From Escherichia phage Mu: a stretch of DNA of 36,717 nucleotides. The notes below the pieces were generated by a model. It ran no database searches and was not told the DNA's origin. It was given only the letters and a program-made list of their open reading frames with translations. Positions within the stretch are counted from its first letter, which is position 1, and every line of letters begins with the position of its first letter. A program made the translations under genes and the position numbers. Below are positions 8,785 to 12,891 of the stretch, piece after piece. The DNA lies in the sequence record NC_000929.1. One strand, written 5' to 3'.

Positions 8785-9170
8785 CGGAAGATTTATTTGG
8801 TGATTTGCAGGATGACACCATCCTGGCACATCTTGACAATCCCGCCGAGGATACGTCACGCTTTCCGGCACTGCTGGCGGAGCTGAACGATTTACTGCGC
8901 GGGGAATTGTCCCGGCTGGGTGTTGATCCTGCCCATTCACTGGAGATTGTTGTGGCTATCTGTAAGCATCTGGGCGGCGGTCAGGTCTACATTCCACGCG
9001 GTCAGGCTCTGGACTCGCTGATTCGGGATTTGCGTATCTGGAATGATTTTAACGGTCGCAACGTCAGCGAACTGACCACCCGTTATGGTGTCACTTTCAA
9101 TACGGTGTACAAAGCCATTCGCCGGATGCGACGGCTGAAATACCGCCAGTACCAGCCCTCACTTCTGTAA
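8781..9170 (+). CDS. mor: Mor, activator of the middle promoter (129 aa)
   Basis: 129-aa ORF overlapping the gemA stop; clear paralog of C at 9963 (shared ...GG-Q-YIP-G ... FNGRN--EL ... Y ... IY-I). Confidence 0.9.
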   Translation: MTEDLFGDLQDDTILAHLDNPAEDTSRFPALLAELNDLLRGELSRLGVDPAHSLEIVVAICKHLGGGQVYIPRGQALDSLIRDLRIWNDFNGRNVSELTTRYGVTFNTVYKAIRRMRRLKYRQYQPSLL

Positions 9171-9176
9171 ACAGTA

Positions 9177-9200
9177 AAGCCGGTTAATCCGGCTTTTTTT
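9177..9200 (+). terminator. Rho-independent terminator ending the early operon
   Basis: Stem AAGCCGG / CCGGCTT with loop TTAAT, followed by a run of seven T, 7 nt after the mor stop codon. Confidence 0.8.
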
Positions 9201-9247
9201 ACGTCCTCAATATCCTGTGATGAATAACCGTACCGGGGAAAATCATC
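9201..9247 (+). promoter_or_regulatory. Probable middle promoter Pm region (Mor-dependent)
   Basis: Placed by inference: it lies between the early terminator and the first middle-operon ORF, and Mor is known to activate a middle promoter driving C. The Mor site may extend upstream into the terminator. Exact -10/-35 not resolved. Confidence 0.35.
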
Positions 9248-9466
9248 ATGGGTAAAGGCTGGAATGCATCCTTTCATCTTGGCAGACGTGAGCGGCTGCG
9301 TCAGGAGGTTTTGCACCGTGTCGCCGGTGGGCCACGTCCTGCGCCCCGCGACTATACCGGTCATGATGGCACCCACGGCAGTTATTACATGAAAGGCTGG
9401 CAGTCAGTTGATATGCCGGAAATTCTTCATCATTGCCTGCTTTACAGGGAGAAACATTATGTCTGA
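9248..9466 (+). CDS. Middle-operon hypothetical protein (72 aa)
   Basis: ORF with GGGGAAAA upstream of the ATG; first ORF after the early terminator. Confidence 0.55.
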   Translation: MGKGWNASFHLGRRERLRQEVLHRVAGGPRPAPRDYTGHDGTHGSYYMKGWQSVDMPEILHHCLLYREKHYV

Positions 9467-9821
9467 GCGTTCTGCTCGTCAGTGGCCTGATTTTTTATCG
9501 GTGGTGTTACTGGCGCTGTTATTGTGGATAAGTCTGTTTTGTGGCTGGCGCGCGCTGATGTTTTGCTGTGCCTCGGTTTTCAGTGTTGCTTTATGTGTTG
9601 CCGCTGATTGTCTGGATGCGCTGATAATGAGCTGCCGGGTGCCTGAACATTTTGCCCGGTTCGTCTGGCCTCTGACCTGGCTGGGGAGTCTGTCCGGGCT
9701 GGGATTAGCCGTGATGGCAACGTCTCAACTGAAAACGGGTCCTGAGCATGTCATCTGGGCGCTGGCCGGATTGCTGACGTTCTGGCTCTCATTTCGTTTT
9801 CGCGCTCGTCTGTTCGGGTAA
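9459..9821 (+). CDS. Middle-operon predicted membrane protein (120 aa)
   Basis: ATG at 9459 preceded by AGGGAGAAA; the product has several hydrophobic stretches (VVLLALLLWISLF, GLGLAVMA, WALAGLLTFWL). Confidence 0.6.
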   Translation: MSERSARQWPDFLSVVLLALLLWISLFCGWRALMFCCASVFSVALCVAADCLDALIMSCRVPEHFARFVWPLTWLGSLSGLGLAVMATSQLKTGPEHVIWALAGLLTFWLSFRFRARLFG

Positions 9822-9830
9822 AGGGGCACC

Positions 9831-9950
9831 ATGTACAGAAAATTCAGTGATGAATGTTTCGGGCCGTCCACGCTGATTAATGCGATAAAAGTGATTGCCC
9901 TTGTGGTTCTGATAACCATCAGTGCCGTGGTGTATCTTTCTGTCTGTTAA
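9831..9950 (+). CDS. Middle-operon small membrane peptide (39 aa)
   Basis: ATG at 9831 preceded by AAAGGGG; translates to MYRKFSDECFGPSTLINAIKVIALVVLITISAVVYLSVC with one hydrophobic helix. Below the 60-aa cutoff of the ORF track. Confidence 0.45.
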   Translation: MYRKFSDECFGPSTLINAIKVIALVVLITISAVVYLSVC

Positions 9951-9962
9951 CCGGGGGAAAAT

Positions 9963-10385
9963 ATGCAGCATGATTTATTTGAACACGATCCGGCAATTCG
10001 CCAGTTAATCGGACATATTGATAACATCCCGGCCCCGGAACTGGAATCACGCTGGCCCCGTTCGGTGGTTGATCTGATTGATGTTCTGGAAAACGAACTG
10101 AAACGCCAGAACGTCAGCAATCCCCGTGAACTTGCCCGTAAACAGGCCGTTGCCCTGTCCTGTTTTCTGGGTGGACGGCAGTTTTACATCCCCTGCGGCG
10201 ATACGATCCTGACCGCGTTACGCGACGATTTGCTTTACTGCCAGTTTAATGGTCGTAACATGGAAGAACTGCGTCGCCAGTACCGCCTGTCCCAGCCGCA
10301 GATCTACCAGATTATTGCCCGCCAGAGAAAGCTGCATACACGACGTCATCAGCCTGATCTGTTCTCACCTGAAACCCCAAAATAA
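9963..10385 (+). CDS. C: C, late transcription activator (140 aa)
   Basis: 140-aa ORF with GGGGGAAAA upstream; paralog of Mor; position before the lysis and morphogenesis genes. Confidence 0.9.
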   Translation: MQHDLFEHDPAIRQLIGHIDNIPAPELESRWPRSVVDLIDVLENELKRQNVSNPRELARKQAVALSCFLGGRQFYIPCGDTILTALRDDLLYCQFNGRNMEELRRQYRLSQPQIYQIIARQRKLHTRRHQPDLFSPETPK

Positions 10386-10406
10386 CCGGCATCCTGCCGG
10401 TTATTT
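10384..10406 (+). terminator. Probable terminator of the middle transcript
   Basis: Stem AACCGGC / GCCGGTT with loop ATCCT overlapping the C stop codon, followed by ATTT; the T-tail is weaker than at the early terminator. Confidence 0.55.
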
Positions 10407-10476
10407 CCTGTCACCATAATCCCGCACCTGCCACCTGATTTTTTAGACTGCCATCAGAGAATTTTTTCAGGGAAGC
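10407..10476 (+). promoter_or_regulatory. Probable C-dependent late promoter Plys
   Basis: Intergenic region upstream of lys containing ATAATCCCGCACCTG (10416-10430). The 9-mer CCCGCACCT recurs at a similar distance upstream of gene I. Confidence 0.45.
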
Positions 10477-10995
10477 ATGATGGCGGGGATACCAAAAAAA
10501 CTGAAAGCCGCACTGCTGGCTGTAACGATTGCCGGTGGCGGAGTGGGTGGTTATCAGGAAATGACCCGTCAGTCTCTGATCCACCTGGAAAATATCGCTT
10601 ATATGCCTTACCGCGATATTGCCGGTGTGCTTACGGTCTGTGTGGGACATACCGGGCCGGATATCGAAATGCGCCGTTACAGCCATGCGGAGTGTATGGC
10701 TCTCCTCGACAGTGATTTAAAACCGGTTTATGCGGCAATCGATCGTCTTGTCAGGGTGCCGCTGACGCCATATCAGAAAACGGCGCTGGCAACGTTTATT
10801 TTCAACACCGGTGTTACCGCATTCAGTAAATCAACGCTGCTGAAAAAACTCAATGCCGGTGATTACGCCGGAGCGCGTGACCAGATGGCCCGCTGGGTGT
10901 TTGCCGCAGGCCATAAATGGAAAGGACTGATGAACCGTCGCGAAGTGGAAATGGCAATCTGGAATATCAGGGGGGCGGATGACCTTCGCCAGTAA
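10477..10995 (+). CDS. lys: Endolysin with N-terminal signal-anchor-release (SAR) domain, lysozyme-like (172 aa)
   Basis: N-terminal weakly hydrophobic, Gly/Ala-rich segment (LKAALLAVTIAGGGVGGY) followed by a lysozyme-like body; recognised as Mu Lys. Confidence 0.88.
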   Translation: MMAGIPKKLKAALLAVTIAGGGVGGYQEMTRQSLIHLENIAYMPYRDIAGVLTVCVGHTGPDIEMRRYSHAECMALLDSDLKPVYAAIDRLVRVPLTPYQKTALATFIFNTGVTAFSKSTLLKKLNAGDYAGARDQMARWVFAAGHKWKGLMNRREVEMAIWNIRGADDLRQ

Positions 10996-11365
10996 AAGTT
11001 TACTACTGGCAGCCGTGTTTACCGCCGTTCTGTCCGGGGGGTTGTGGCACAGGCTGGACAGCACCCGCCACGATAACCAGACGCTGCGCCGTGAATTACA
11101 GACGGAGCAACAGGCCCGCCACACTGCTGAATGGTTGTTACACGGTCAGGAACAGACGATGCAGGTATTTTCCGCTATCCGTGCCGCAAATCGTGCCGCA
11201 CGGCTGGCAGATGAGACAGAACATCATGATGCAAAAGAAAAAATTACAACCGCCATTACTGGTGACAATTGCAGCACTCGTCCTGTGCCTGCCGTTGCTG
11301 CTGACAGGTTGCGGGAACTCGAAAAACGCACCCGTGCCATCGGTGGTGATCCTGCCCGAAATTGA
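10979..11365 (+). CDS. Inner-membrane spanin subunit (Rz-like, 128 aa)
   Basis: N-terminal transmembrane helix (LLLAAVFTAVLSGGLW) followed by a charged, probably coiled-coil periplasmic region; directly after lys. Confidence 0.75.
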   Translation: MTFASKSLLLAAVFTAVLSGGLWHRLDSTRHDNQTLRRELQTEQQARHTAEWLLHGQEQTMQVFSAIRAANRAARLADETEHHDAKEKITTAITGDNCSTRPVPAVAADRLRELEKRTRAIGGDPARN

Positions 11366-11567
11366 TACAGAACTGACGGAAGCAACGCCCGTTCCGCCCA
11401 TGCCACAGCCCCTGACGTGGGGAGCATCCCTTCTCTGGAATGCTGACCTGTTGATGGCGCTCGGGCAGTGCAACCGCGACAAGGCATCAGTCCGGGAACA
11501 GGAGATCCGAAGGAAAGAAATTTATGAACGAAGACCAGAACCGGGCGGTGGCGCTGCTGCTCGCTGA
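11226..11567 (+). CDS. Outer-membrane lipoprotein spanin subunit (Rz1-like), overlapping the inner-membrane spanin gene in another frame
   Basis: Start MMQKKK, signal peptide ending in the lipobox LLLTGC, Pro-rich mature region; begins inside the previous gene in the +1 frame and extends past it. The 3' extent is uncertain. Confidence 0.7.
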   Translation: MMQKKKLQPPLLVTIAALVLCLPLLLTGCGNSKNAPVPSVVILPEIDTELTEATPVPPMPQPLTWGASLLWNADLLMALGQCNRDKASVREQEIRRKEIYERRPEPGGGAAAR

Positions 11568-11718
11568 ACTCTGGCAGGGGGATACCCGTGATATTCCCCG
11601 CCCGGCGGCGTATGACCCGCCTGTATTGTGTGCCGGTTGCGGTCGTGAGCTGCGGCCTGATGTGCTGAGACAGCAGCCGATGGCGAACTACTGCCACTGG
11701 TGCCGTGGAGCAGAATAA
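11524..11718 (+). CDS. Small hypothetical protein with CxxC ... CxxC (64 aa)
   Basis: ORF with two CxxC pairs (CAGCG ... CHWC); function unknown. Confidence 0.55.
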   Translation: MNEDQNRAVALLLAELWQGDTRDIPRPAAYDPPVLCAGCGRELRPDVLRQQPMANYCHWCRGAE

Positions 11719-12017
11719 TGGATTTGATTTCAGTTTTAGCGTTATGGCCTTACCTGTTGCCTGTTGTGGCCGGTGGGGCCGTCTGGGCGATGCGTCGTAG
11801 TTTTGCCAGCACCGAGCGTGTGGAGCGTCTTGAAAACCGGATGACCGAAATGGAAACCCGCTACGCCAGCATCCCTGGCACAGAAGATGTACACGAAATG
11901 CGCCTGCGAATTGCAGAGCTGTCCGGCGATATCCGGGTGCTGTCCCAGCGGGTGCAGTCATTTTCCCATCAACTGGAGCTGCTGCTTGAAAACGCAGTAA
12001 ACCGGAGTAATTCATGA
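11718..12017 (+). CDS. Membrane-anchored coiled-coil protein (99 aa), candidate lysis accessory factor
   Basis: ATG at 11718 overlaps the previous stop (TAATG); N-terminal transmembrane helix (LISVLALWPYLLPVVAGGAVWA) then a coiled-coil region. Sits in the lysis cluster; I recall the equivalent Mu protein being implicated in endolysin release. Confidence 0.65.
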   Translation: MDLISVLALWPYLLPVVAGGAVWAMRRSFASTERVERLENRMTEMETRYASIPGTEDVHEMRLRIAELSGDIRVLSQRVQSFSHQLELLLENAVNRSNS

Positions 12018-12304
12018 TTAACGATATTCTGACCGAAGACCGTCGTCTGGTCATCCTGCGTTCCCTGATGGACTGCAATAACGAAGCAAACGAATCCATC
12101 CTTCAGGACTGTCTGGATGCATACGGACACAACGTTTCCCGCGATGTGGTTCGCGGCCAGATTGACTGGCTGGCAGAGCAGCAACTGGTCACCGTGGAAA
12201 ACCTGCGCGGCTTTTATGTCGTAACGCTGACCTCCCGAGGTCAGGATGTGGCAGAAGGTCGTGCCCGCGTTGCCGGTGTCAAGCGTCCTCGTCCCCGTGC
12301 ATGA
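12014..12304 (+). CDS. Hypothetical protein (96 aa)
   Basis: ATGA start/stop overlap with the previous gene; GGAG RBS. Confidence 0.65.
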   Translation: MINDILTEDRRLVILRSLMDCNNEANESILQDCLDAYGHNVSRDVVRGQIDWLAEQQLVTVENLRGFYVVTLTSRGQDVAEGRARVAGVKRPRPRA

Positions 12305-12891
12305 CAGGAGGCGTGATGGACAGGAAAACACGGGGCCGGGCTTCAAAAGTGGATTTACTGCCGGAAAACGTACGTAAAACGCTGCATGAAATGCTGCGTG
12401 ATAAAGCGATCCCACAGGCCCGCATTCTGGAAGAAATTAACGCACTGATTGAAGACGCAGGCCTGCCGGATGAGATGAAACTCTCCCGTTCCGGTCTGAA
12501 TCGTTACGCGACGAACGTCGAGCAGGTAGGCCATAACCTGCGACAGATGCGTGAAATGACGTCAGCACTGACCGCAGAACTTGGCGACAAGCCAATGGGA
12601 GAAACCACAAAGCTGATTCTGGAAATGGCCCGCAGCCAGCTTTTTAAGGCCATGATGCGGCAAATCGAAAACCCGGAATCTGACGTGGATATTGACCTGC
12701 TGAAAAATGCCATGCTGGCGGCACAGCGTCTGGAATCCACGGCAATGTCCAGCCACCGGCGCGAGAAAGAAATCCGCCAGGCATTCGCAGAAGAAGCGGC
12801 AAACGCCGTCAGTGAAGAACTGCGCGGGCAGGATGGCATCAGCGAAGAGCTGGAGCAGCGTATCCGTGATGTACTGCTGGGTAAGGCATGA
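12301..12891 (+). CDS. D: Probable terminase small subunit / DNA-packaging protein (alternative start 12316)
   Basis: Located immediately upstream of the terminase large subunit; ATGA overlap with the previous gene. The gene letter D is assigned from memory and is less certain. Confidence 0.65.
   Translation: MTGGVMDRKTRGRASKVDLLPENVRKTLHEMLRDKAIPQARILEEINALIEDAGLPDEMKLSRSGLNRYATNVEQVGHNLRQMREMTSALTAELGDKPMGETTKLILEMARSQLFKAMMRQIENPESDVDIDLLKNAMLAAQRLESTAMSSHRREKEIRQAFAEEAANAVSEELRGQDGISEELEQRIRDVLLGKA

What the first reader, a model, noticed from the sequence alone, without database searches (positions are those of the whole stretch)
10477..12017. Lysis cassette without an obvious holin: SAR endolysin, overlapped spanin pair and a membrane-anchored coiled-coil protein
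The endolysin has an N-terminal weakly hydrophobic Gly/Ala-rich segment typical of signal-anchor-release endolysins. No small protein with two or three transmembrane helices (a classic holin) sits next to it. The outer-membrane lipoprotein spanin (lipobox LLLTGC) starts inside the inner-membrane spanin gene in a different frame and extends beyond it. Two further small proteins follow: a CxxC ... CxxC peptide and a single-pass membrane protein with a coiled coil (11718-12017). The latter is a good candidate for the factor that controls endolysin release.
Basis: partly seen in the sequence, partly recalled or inferred. Interest (0 to 1): 0.45.

Follow-up and report, generated by a model that had tools for sequence, protein, structure and literature searches.

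The report
Phage Mu holin-less lysis cassette

Summary
The window is bacteriophage Mu: 36,717 bp, 100% identical to Mu GenBank fragments.

- gp22: SAR endolysin, 10477/10480-10995.
- gp23 and gp23.1: overlapped spanin pair, 10979-11365 and 11226-11567, lipobox LLLTGC.
- gp24: CxxC...CxxC peptide, 11524-11718.
- gp25: single-pass coiled-coil DUF2730 protein, 11718-12017.

Chamblee et al. 2022 (PMC9239132) showed experimentally that Mu has no holin. They showed that gp25 is a "releasin" required for gp22 to leave the membrane, and that a 25::cam lysogen does not lyse on time. The upstream membrane proteins gp19 and gp20 are not holins.

My additions are minor. gp25 models as a two-helix coiled coil with no conserved Ser or His, which argues against the protease model. 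gp24, which that paper does not mention, is probably a diverged TraR/DksA-type C4 zinc finger. In 43 of 46 distinct DUF2730 loci a C4 zinc-finger gene abuts the DUF2730 start, and 31 of those are bona fide TraR-type. That link is suggestive, not proven.

The parts
9459..9821 (+). gp19, a 120-aa multi-TMD membrane protein of the middle operon. It looks like a holin by topology but is not one.
   Evidence: Hydropathy shows 3-4 hydrophobic segments. It matches phrog_4975, function unknown, at E 4e-72. PMC9239132 reports it as a middle gene that can be inactivated without effect on lysis and that shows no DNP-triggered lethality. A gp19-like ORF is absent from close relatives that keep the lys-to-gp25 block (L018, L019, L028-L033).
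9831..9950 (+). gp20, a 39-aa single-TMD protein of the middle operon. It was once proposed as an antiholin and has been rejected.
   Evidence: phrog_19823; PMC9239132.
9963..10385 (+). Gene C, the late transcription activator (Mor family). It separates gp19/gp20 from the lysis genes.
   Evidence: PF08765 at E 9e-34; phrog_532; D108 annotation.
10386..10406 (+). Rho-independent terminator after C. The C-dependent late promoter Plys lies between it and lys.
   Evidence: The hairpin CCGGCATCCTGCCGG followed by a T-rich tail is read directly from the sequence. The equivalent site is annotated as a terminator in D108. Plys is placed upstream of lys in Fig. 1 of PMC9239132.
10477..10995 (+). lys / gp22, the SAR (signal-anchor-release) endolysin, a T4-type lysozyme. 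The published start is the second ATG at 10480.
   Evidence: PF00959 at E 1e-37 and phrog_7. The N-terminal segment is weakly hydrophobic and rich in Gly and Ala, preceded by K6, K7 and K9 in published numbering. Release by the phage 21 pinholin is shown in PMC9239132.
10979..11365 (+). gp23, the inner-membrane spanin subunit (i-spanin).
   Evidence: N-terminal TMD; phrog_214 'Rz-like spanin' at E 1e-34; amber phenotype in PMC9239132.
11226..11567 (+). gp23.1, the outer-membrane lipoprotein spanin subunit (o-spanin). It starts inside gp23 in another frame and extends 202 nt beyond it, the 'overlapped' architecture.
   Evidence: Lipobox LLLTGC, Gly at +2, and a Pro-rich mature part. PF23793 LysC/Rz1-like at E 4e-14 and phrog_3001. 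PMC9239132.
11524..11718 (+). gp24, a 64-aa CxxC-x17-CxxC protein. It is probably a diverged TraR/DksA-type C4 zinc finger and is not shown to act in lysis.
   Evidence: Cys at 36, 39, 57 and 60. phrog_3260, function unknown. No PF01258 hit. hhalign against TraR-type neighbours of DUF2730 gives 82% probability and E 1e-5. The best Foldseek match of the AF2 model is TraR 6n57_M. Its genomic position is syntenic with bona fide TraR-type genes.
11718..12017 (+). gp25, the releasin: a DUF2730 protein with an N-out/C-in single TMD and a cytoplasmic two-helix coiled coil. It is required for release of gp22 from the membrane.
   Evidence: PF10805 at 50.4 bits against a cutoff of 24.9. TMD at residues 4-25 followed by RR. 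AF2 helices 3-51 and 55-98. Heptad signature. 25::cam and co-expression experiments in PMC9239132. Its ATG overlaps the gp24 stop (TAATG) and its stop overlaps the gp26 ATG.
12014..12304 (+). gp26, a 96-aa protein of unknown function that always follows DUF2730. It is context only, not shown to be part of lysis.
   Evidence: phrog_436, function unknown. A homologous ORF follows DUF2730 in every related locus inspected. Orthologues give only weak, sub-threshold winged-helix hits.

Best explanation
The region is the late-operon lysis module of bacteriophage Mu, transcribed from the C-dependent Plys promoter.

How it works:
1. gp22 is exported by Sec and stays tethered to the inner membrane, inactive, by its weakly hydrophobic N-terminal SAR helix. 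Basic residues K6 and K7 on the cytoplasmic side lock that helix in the bilayer.
2. Mu has no holin.
3. gp25 is a single-pass N-out/C-in membrane protein whose cytoplasmic part is a two-helix coiled coil (DUF2730). It accumulates and lets the SAR helix leave the membrane without collapsing the proton-motive force.
4. Freed gp22 refolds and degrades the peptidoglycan.
5. The gp23/gp23.1 spanin complex then disrupts the outer membrane.

Shown by published experiment: the identity and roles of gp22, gp23, gp23.1 and gp25; dependence on K6 and K7; absence of holin activity.

My inference on how gp25 acts: it most likely works as an oligomeric, non-enzymatic, membrane-level chaperone. Its Trp-, Gly- and Pro-containing TMD and the juxtamembrane R/K-(T/S)-F-A motif would lower the barrier for the charged N-terminus of the SAR helix to cross or leave the bilayer. 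I think protease action or a simple acidic charge-neutralising patch is less likely.

gp24 is probably not a lysis protein. It is probably a diverged TraR/DksA-type zinc finger.
For: Identity of the window: 100% to Mu fragments AF007792.2 and M64097.1, and 99% to D108.

Family assignments: PF00959, phrog_214, PF23793 and PF10805.

Published experiments (PMC9239132):
- Pinholin release of gp22.
- Spanin amber phenotypes.
- 25::cam abolishes timely lysis, and chloroform rescues it.
- gp22 plus gp25 are sufficient for lysis.
- K6A or K7A relieves the dependence on gp25.
- gp25 also helps release three unrelated SAR endolysins.
- DNP does not trigger gp19, gp20 or gp25, and it delays Mu lysis.

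For the non-enzymatic reading:
- The AF2 model is all-helical, helices 3-51 and 55-98, pLDDT 78.
- Heptad a/d positions are 75% and 92% hydrophobic, against 36-39% overall.
- The family profile matches only coiled coils in the PDB.
- Among 71 diverse family members no Ser column exceeds 34% and no His column exceeds 59%.
- The cytoplasmic net charge averages -0.5, range -4 to +3.
- The conserved positions are structural: basic residue 27, F29, A30, P53 (99%), G70 and LLLEN 88-92.
Against: - The molecular mechanism of gp25 is not established, and the authors leave protease, host-partner and channel models open.
- My AF2 model is a monomer with a low pTM of 0.34, and it cannot show oligomers or contacts with gp22.
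- DUF2730 also occurs in Mu-like phages with soluble, non-SAR endolysins (my loci L022, L024 and L025). SAR release therefore cannot be the family's only role.
- The K6K7 pair is not conserved in the SAR endolysins of relatives that still keep DUF2730.
Confidence: 0.9

Rival explanations
1. gp19 and gp20, just upstream, are the Mu holin and antiholin. On this reading the cassette is a conventional holin-endolysin-spanin system and gp25 is accessory.
For: gp19 has 3-4 hydrophobic segments and gp20 has one TMD. Samanta et al. proposed the pair as holin and antiholin on topology, as cited in PMC9239132.
Against: Both genes lie in the middle operon, separated from lys by gene C and a terminator. 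Earlier genetics showed that inactivating them has no significant effect on lysis. Neither one, alone or together, becomes lethal on DNP treatment, and DNP delays Mu lysis rather than triggering it. A gp19-like ORF is missing from relatives that retain the lys-to-gp25 block.
Confidence: 0.03
2. gp25 is itself a single-TMD holin or pinholin that depolarises the membrane and so releases the SAR endolysin.
For: It is a small late membrane protein encoded next to the endolysin, and single-TMD holins exist (from my own knowledge, T4 gpT is one). SAR endolysins are normally released by pinholin-mediated depolarisation.
Against: Induced gp25 is not toxic and is not triggered to lethality by DNP. Mu lysogens are not lysed prematurely by DNP. 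Most of the protein is a cytoplasmic coiled coil, with only about 4 periplasmic residues.
Confidence: 0.04
3. gp25 is a membrane-tethered protease that removes the basic N-terminus of gp22.
For: The authors raise this model. Mu gp25 has 9 Ser and 2 His residues and many acidic residues in its cytoplasmic domain.
Against: The fold is a two-helix coiled coil, not a protease fold. No Ser, His or Asp position is conserved across 71 family members. gp25 acts on SAR endolysins with unrelated N-termini, which the authors say argues against specific recognition.
Confidence: 0.05
4. The ancestral or main role of DUF2730 is not lysis. It would belong to a conserved module of TraR-type zinc finger, DUF2730, gp26 and small terminase at the start of the late or packaging region. 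The releasin activity would then be a specialisation, or a side effect, in the Mu clade.
For: DUF2730 is present in Mu-like phages with soluble endolysins of other enzyme classes (L022 has GH108, L025 has an amidase). In 43 of 46 distinct loci a C4 zinc-finger ORF abuts DUF2730, and a gp26-like ORF and the small terminase follow it.
Against: In Mu itself the lysis phenotype of 25::cam is strong and direct, and gp22 plus gp25 suffice for lysis. Conserved gene order alone does not prove a functional link. My locus sample comes from only about five seed clades.
Confidence: 0.25

Closest known systems
Phage Mu gp22/gp23/gp23.1/gp25 holin-less lysis system (Chamblee et al. 2022, mBio, PMC9239132)
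   Same: It is the same sequence. The window is 100% identical to Mu records, and the genes, coordinates and features match the paper's description.
   Different: Nothing differs for the lysis genes. The paper does not discuss gp24.
Pinholin / SAR-endolysin systems (phage 21 S21-68 with R21; P1 Lyz)
   Same: The endolysin is exported and tethered by a weakly hydrophobic N-terminal signal-anchor-release helix, and it becomes active once released from the membrane. Spanins finish the job.
   Different: There is no pinholin, no release triggered by PMF collapse, and DNP does not trigger lysis. Release depends instead on a cytoplasm-facing coiled-coil membrane protein and on K6 and K7 of the endolysin.
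Lambda Rz/Rz1 two-component spanins
   Same: An inner-membrane subunit with an N-terminal TMD is paired with an outer-membrane lipoprotein encoded in a different frame. Lambda RzRz1 complements the Mu 23.1 amber mutant (legend of Fig. 2A).
   Different: From my own knowledge, in lambda Rz1 is fully embedded within Rz. In Mu, gp23.1 starts inside gp23 and runs 202 nt past its end, the 'overlapped' architecture.
TraR / DksA C4 zinc-finger RNAP secondary-channel factors (F TraR, lambda Orf73; PMC9239242), compared with gp24
   Same: gp24 has a similar size, the same CxxC-x17-CxxC spacing and an acidic N-terminal helix. TraR is the best structural match. Its genomic slot is occupied by bona fide PF01258 proteins in other Mu-like phages.
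   Different: gp24 does not reach the PF01258 threshold. It lacks the D3/D6 (DxxDxA) pair and the C-terminal helix. It has its own conserved W17-Q18-G19 and P25. No RNAP binding has been shown.

Membership tests
SAR endolysin (gp22) | Muralytic catalytic domain | tested here: met
   PF00959 at E 1e-37 and 129.7 bits. The E-x8-D-x5-T triad is read in the translation.
SAR endolysin (gp22) | N-terminal weakly hydrophobic, Gly/Ala/Thr-rich segment preceded by basic residues | tested here: met
   The KD19 maximum is about 1.2, against 1.6-2.8 for the true TMDs in the same region. The sequence is KKLKAALLAVTIAGGGVGGY.
SAR endolysin (gp22) | Membrane-tethered inactive form that can be released by a pinholin or by depolarisation | not testable with these tools
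   Shown experimentally in PMC9239132, Fig. 2D and 3B.
Two-component spanin (gp23 / gp23.1) | [quoted passage not shown] | tested here: met
   TMD at residues 1-20, KD 1.61. phrog_214 at E 1e-34.
Two-component spanin (gp23 / gp23.1) | o-spanin is a lipoprotein with a lipobox Cys, encoded in another frame overlapping the i-spanin gene | tested here: met
   Lipobox LLLTGC; frame 2 against frame 1; 11226-11567 against 10979-11365. PF23793 at 52.6 bits against a cutoff of 27.
Two-component spanin (gp23 / gp23.1) | Required for outer-membrane disruption, with a spherical-cell phenotype when defective | not testable with these tools
   Published amber phenotype and complementation by lambda RzRz1.
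Releasin / DUF2730 (gp25) | Match to PF10805 above the gathering score | tested here: met
   50.4 bits against a cutoff of 24.9. The profile search finds 288 clusters at 50% identity.
Releasin / DUF2730 (gp25) | Single N-terminal TMD with N-out/C-in topology and a cytoplasmic C-terminal domain | tested here: met
   One hydrophobic segment at residues 4-25. There are no basic residues before it, and RR follows directly. The basic residue at position 27 is present in 85% of 71 homologues. Topology is inferred from the positive-inside rule and was not measured.
Releasin / DUF2730 (gp25) | Encoded within a few genes downstream of the endolysin in a transposable phage | tested here: met
   gp25 is four genes after lys. 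The same layout is seen in the relatives.
Releasin / DUF2730 (gp25) | Required for release of the SAR endolysin without holin-type membrane killing | not testable with these tools
   Published: 25::cam, co-expression and DNP tests.
Holin (considered for gp19, gp20 and gp25) | Small membrane protein with one or more TMDs | tested here: met
   gp19 has 3-4 segments, gp20 has 1 and gp25 has 1.
Holin (considered for gp19, gp20 and gp25) | Expressed from the late lysis transcript | tested here: not met
   This fails for gp19 and gp20. They lie upstream of gene C and of the terminator at 10386-10406, and PMC9239132 calls them middle genes. gp25 is a late gene.
Holin (considered for gp19, gp20 and gp25) | Lethal hole formation that energy poisons can trigger prematurely | not testable with these tools
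   The published result is negative for all three, alone and together.
TraR/DksA C4 zinc finger, PF01258 (considered for gp24) | CxxC-x17-CxxC zinc-finger motif | tested here: met
   Cys at 36, 39, 57 and 60, with 17 residues between the two pairs. The motif definition comes from PMC9239242.
TraR/DksA C4 zinc finger, PF01258 (considered for gp24) | Significant match to the PF01258 profile | tested here: not met
   No PF01258 hit, even at E up to 10, for gp24 or its close relatives. Four positional counterparts score 27.7-45.9 bits against a cutoff of 24.9.
TraR/DksA C4 zinc finger, PF01258 (considered for gp24) | Remote homology and fold | tested here: inconclusive
   hhalign gives 82% probability, E 1.1e-5 over 43 columns. 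The model was built without TraR-type sequences, yet its top Foldseek hit is TraR 6n57_M (probability 0.84, E 0.087), followed by DksA fingers at rmsd 0.6-0.9 A over 30 residues. None of these values is significant on its own.
TraR/DksA C4 zinc finger, PF01258 (considered for gp24) | Conserved N-terminal acidic pair (TraR D3/D6; the DxxDxA tip) needed for activity | tested here: not met
   gp24 reads M-N-E-D-Q-N-R-A, with E3 and N6. The TraR-type neighbours of DUF2730 read DxFDRAQ.
TraR/DksA C4 zinc finger, PF01258 (considered for gp24) | Binding to the RNA polymerase secondary channel and regulation of initiation | not testable with these tools
   I found no data for gp24. Neither PMC9239132 nor PMC9239242 mentions it.

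The most novel reading that the evidence does not exclude
gp24 is a diverged member of the TraR/DksA zinc-finger family. Together with the releasin gene it forms an ancient gene pair conserved across transposable phages: a C4 zinc-finger ORF abuts the DUF2730 start in 43 of 46 distinct loci, and in Mu the gp24 stop overlaps the gp25 start. Under this reading gp24 binds RNA polymerase, or another target, late in infection to redirect host transcription. Its pairing with the membrane-tethered gp25 would reflect a functional link between transcriptional shut-off and the timing of endolysin release, in a phage that lacks a holin clock.
Probability: 0.15. Interest if true: 0.55.

Novelty: already known. 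Interest (0 to 1): 0.15.

Why it matters
The biology itself is notable. Mu is the first well-studied tailed phage shown to lyse its host without a holin, using a "releasin" to free a membrane-tethered endolysin. That result was published in 2022 on this exact sequence, so confirming it here adds nothing new. It does show that a reader working from sequence alone reached the right functional hypothesis. Two questions remain open. The first is how gp25 works, and my analysis favours a non-enzymatic coiled-coil membrane chaperone. The second is what gp24 does. It is probably TraR/DksA-like and is paired with DUF2730 across Mu-like phages, which is a small, testable lead.

Tried and rejected
- The search for related loci with the 71-sequence DUF2730 alignment failed because no stretch was conserved enough. 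A scan seeded with P0033 found nothing. The genome-contig scan gave only 6 loci. The locus census therefore rests on about five seed clades and is not a random sample of the family.
- Foldseek of the gp25 model against the PDB gave no hits. The profile search against PDB sequences gave only generic coiled coils, so no enzyme or known-function fold can be assigned.
- Pfam gave nothing meaningful for gp24, only sub-threshold NinF and zinc-ribbon hits. The profile search of PDB sequences gave only a non-significant DksA-like hit at E 0.87.
- Antisense ORFs across the cassette, including the 291-aa ORF at 11224-12099 on the minus strand, have no PHROG match. I treat them as spurious products of the GC-rich sequence.
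- Rfam found no structured RNA in 9000-12600, apart from one sub-threshold chance hit.
- The sigma-70 promoter scan found nothing upstream of lys. This is expected, because Plys is an activator-dependent late promoter.
- My hydropathy screen for holin-like ORFs with 2 or more TMDs in distant loci used a strict cut-off and missed the annotated HS6 "holin". I therefore draw no conclusion about holins in the distant phages.
Full report
**What the window is.** The window is 36,717 bp. Its segment 9300-12400 is 100% identical to the Mu GenBank fragments AF007792.2 and M64097.1, and 99% identical to the complete genome of the sister phage D108. The D108 RefSeq annotation across this stretch reads mor, terminator, 18, 19, 20, C, terminator, lys (endolysin), 23 (Rz-like spanin), 24 (hypothetical), 25 (DUF2730 family protein), 26, 27 (terminase small subunit). 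The window is bacteriophage Mu, and the finding covers its lysis genes.

**Check of the observation.** Every element is present at the stated coordinates.

- lys/gp22 runs 10477-10995. Two ATGs are adjacent, and the published numbering and the D108 annotation start at the second one, 10480.
- gp22 matches PF00959 at E 1e-37 and contains the E-x8-D-x5-T triad.
- Its N-terminal segment (MAGIPKKLKAALLAVTIAGGGVGGY) is only weakly hydrophobic. The best 19-residue Kyte-Doolittle mean is about 1.2, against 1.6 for gp23, 1.8 for gp25 and 2.8 for gp20.
- gp23 (10979-11365) has an N-terminal TMD and matches phrog_214 'Rz-like spanin' at E 1e-34.
- gp23.1 starts at ATG 11226 or 11229 inside gp23 in another frame and carries the lipobox LLLTGC. 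It runs to 11567, which is 202 nt past the gp23 stop. It matches the Rz1-like family PF23793 above threshold.
- gp24 (11524-11718, 64 aa) has Cys at 36, 39, 57 and 60.
- gp25 (11718-12017, 99 aa) has one N-terminal TMD followed by Arg-Arg and matches DUF2730 (PF10805) at 50.4 bits against a cutoff of 24.9.
- The genes are tightly packed. lys/23, 23/23.1 and 23.1/24 overlap. The gp24 stop overlaps the gp25 ATG (TAATG), and the gp25 stop overlaps the gp26 ATG.
- No ORF with two or three TMDs lies between gene C and gp26.
- Antisense ORFs have no family support, and Rfam finds no RNA element.

A multi-TMD protein (gp19, 9459-9821) and a single-TMD protein (gp20, 9831-9950) lie about 650 bp upstream, beyond gene C and a terminator at 10386-10406.

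**What is known.** Chamblee et al. 2022 (mBio, PMC9239132) studied these exact genes and reported the following.

- gp22 is a SAR endolysin, because the phage 21 pinholin releases it.
- gp23 and gp23.1 are the spanin subunits. Amber mutants give spherical cells, and lambda RzRz1 complements them.
- None of the membrane proteins gp19, gp20 or gp25 behaves as a holin. Dinitrophenol triggers no lethality, and it delays lysis of an induced Mu lysogen rather than triggering it.
- gp19 and gp20 are middle genes whose inactivation does not affect lysis.
- A 25::cam lysogen fails to lyse at the normal time of about 40 min and lyses only at about 3 h. Chloroform releases active gp22 in that mutant.
- gp22 plus gp25 lyse cells, but neither does so alone.
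- K6A or K7A in gp22 removes the need for gp25. K-to-R substitutions do not.
- gp25 also promotes release of three unrelated SAR endolysins.
- The authors named gp25 the "releasin" and noted that it defines DUF2730.

Later papers cite this as established. The finding is already known.

**What I could add on gp25.** An exhaustive profile search finds 288 clusters at 50% identity. I aligned 71 diverse full-length members and examined the alignment.

- The conserved features are structural: an N-terminal TMD, a basic residue at position 27 (85%), F/Y29 and A30, Pro53 (99%), Gly70 (83%), and L88-L-L-E-N92.
- No Ser column exceeds 34% and no His column exceeds 59%.
- The cytoplasmic net charge averages -0.5, with a range of -4 to +3.
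- AF2 with this alignment gives two long helices, 3-51 and 55-98, broken at Pro53, with mean pLDDT 78.
- Heptad a/d positions are 75% and 92% hydrophobic, against 36-39% overall.
- The family profile matches only coiled coils among PDB sequences. Foldseek finds no similar solved fold.

These results are hard to reconcile with the serine-protease model raised in the paper's discussion. They also give no family-wide support for a conserved acidic charge-neutralising surface. They fit an oligomeric, non-enzymatic, membrane-anchored coiled coil. The TMD and juxtamembrane motif of such a protein could help the charged N-terminus of a SAR helix leave the bilayer. This is inference, and the mechanism remains open.

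Two observations caution against a releasin-only view of the family. First, DUF2730 occurs with soluble endolysins of other classes: GH108 in L022, an amidase in Pasteurella AFS-2018a, and an annotated holin in HS6. The paper also noted this. Second, the K6K7 pair that makes gp22 dependent on gp25 is not conserved in the SAR endolysins of relatives that keep DUF2730. Examples are MPSIPKSLK in L032, MRKIPNTLK in L019 and MASKLPKTLS in L033.

**gp19 and gp20.** Beyond the published evidence, a gp19-like multi-TMD ORF is found only in Mu proper. It is absent from relatives that retain the whole lys-23-24-25-26 block at 60-70% protein identity (L018, L019, L028-L033). A dispensable accessory gene would show this pattern, and an essential holin would not.

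**gp24, the CxxC peptide.** The Mu lysis paper never mentions it. It has few sequence homologues, all in close Mu relatives. The evidence that it is related to the TraR/DksA family is as follows.

- In distant Mu-like phages the gene directly upstream of DUF2730 is annotated as a DksA/TraR C4 zinc finger. This is so in HS6 gp35 and in Shewanella MuM16-2 p23.
- Four such positional counterparts pass the PF01258 gathering score, at 27.7-45.9 bits against a cutoff of 24.9.
Twelve are gp24-type and 31 are TraR-type, and several cross-hit both HMMs.
- One E. coli Mu-like prophage region (L027) has the full Mu layout: Mor-family activator, SAR-like PF00959 lysozyme, spanin-like ORF, zinc finger, DUF2730, gp26-like ORF. 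There the zinc-finger slot holds a bona fide TraR-type protein.
- gp24 has the TraR Cys spacing CxxC-x17-CxxC.
- Profile-profile comparison of the gp24 group with the TraR-type group gives 82% probability and E 1.1e-5 over 43 columns.
- An AF2 model was built only from gp24-group sequences (pLDDT 80). Its best PDB match is TraR bound to RNAP (6n57_M, probability 0.84, E 0.087). DksA, DksA2 and Chlamydia Dks fingers follow at 0.6-0.9 A rmsd over 30 residues.

The evidence against full membership is as follows.

- gp24 does not reach PF01258 itself.
- It lacks the D3/D6 pair that is functionally important in TraR and lambda Orf73.
- It ends four residues after the last Cys, so it lacks the C-terminal helix of TraR.
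- It has its own conserved W17-Q18-G19 and P25.

I conclude that gp24 probably shares the TraR/DksA zinc-finger fold and ancestry. Its function cannot be transferred from that family. Nothing ties it to lysis, because gp22 plus gp25 suffice for lysis.

A dksA/traR gene in the late region of a transposable phage was noted for Burkholderia KS10 in 2008 (PMC2628397). The presence of such genes in Mu-like phages is therefore not new. I found no paper that assigns Mu gp24 to the family or that notes the near-constant pairing with DUF2730.

**Verdict.** The novelty class is "already known". Interest in the finding as given is low. The residual lead is the gp24/DUF2730 pairing and the unresolved mechanism of the releasin.

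Noticed in passing
window 11524-11718 (gp24); loci L021/L022, L024, L026, L027, L034-L093: gp24 occupies the slot that in other Mu-like phages holds a bona fide DksA/TraR C4 zinc-finger gene directly upstream of DUF2730. In 43 of 46 distinct DUF2730 loci such a zinc-finger ORF abuts the DUF2730 start. gp24 has the TraR Cys spacing and a TraR-like predicted fold, but it lacks the D3/D6 pair and the C-terminal helix.
   Followed up: yes
window 9459-9950 (gp19, gp20); L018, L019, L028-L033: The gp19/gp20 membrane-protein pair is present only in Mu proper. It is missing from relatives at 60-70% identity that keep the whole lys-to-gp26 block, which fits the published conclusion that the pair is not the holin and antiholin.
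   Followed up: partly
N-termini of gp22 homologues in L018, L019, L032, L033, L027: The K6K7 pair that makes Mu gp22 depend on gp25 is not conserved in the SAR endolysins of relatives. L032 has PKSLK, L019 has RKIPNTLK and L033 has KLPKTLS, yet all keep DUF2730. Either dependence on the releasin varies between phages, or DUF2730 has a further role.
   Followed up: no
window 12014-12304 (gp26) and the ORF after DUF2730 in every related locus: A 95-100 aa gp26-like ORF always follows DUF2730, often with overlapping stop and start codons, and precedes the small terminase gene. Orthologues give only weak, sub-threshold winged-helix hits (HTH_12, HTH_20, HTH_5; E about 1e-3). Its function is unknown.
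   Followed up: partly
window 10477 / 10480: lys begins with two adjacent ATG codons.
   Followed up: yes
L020 (D108 NC_013594.1), equivalent to window 11226-11567: The o-spanin gene 23.1 is not annotated in the D108 RefSeq record, although the sequence is 99% identical to Mu.
   Followed up: no
window 9176-9196: A strong intrinsic-terminator hairpin (AAAGCCGG-TTAAT-CCGGCTTT followed by a T run) lies directly after mor. D108 annotates a terminator at the equivalent position.
   Followed up: no
L018 545-727: A Mu relative encodes a 60-aa protein with two strong TMDs in its early region, upstream of gemA. It has no counterpart at that place in Mu, and its function is unknown.
   Followed up: no
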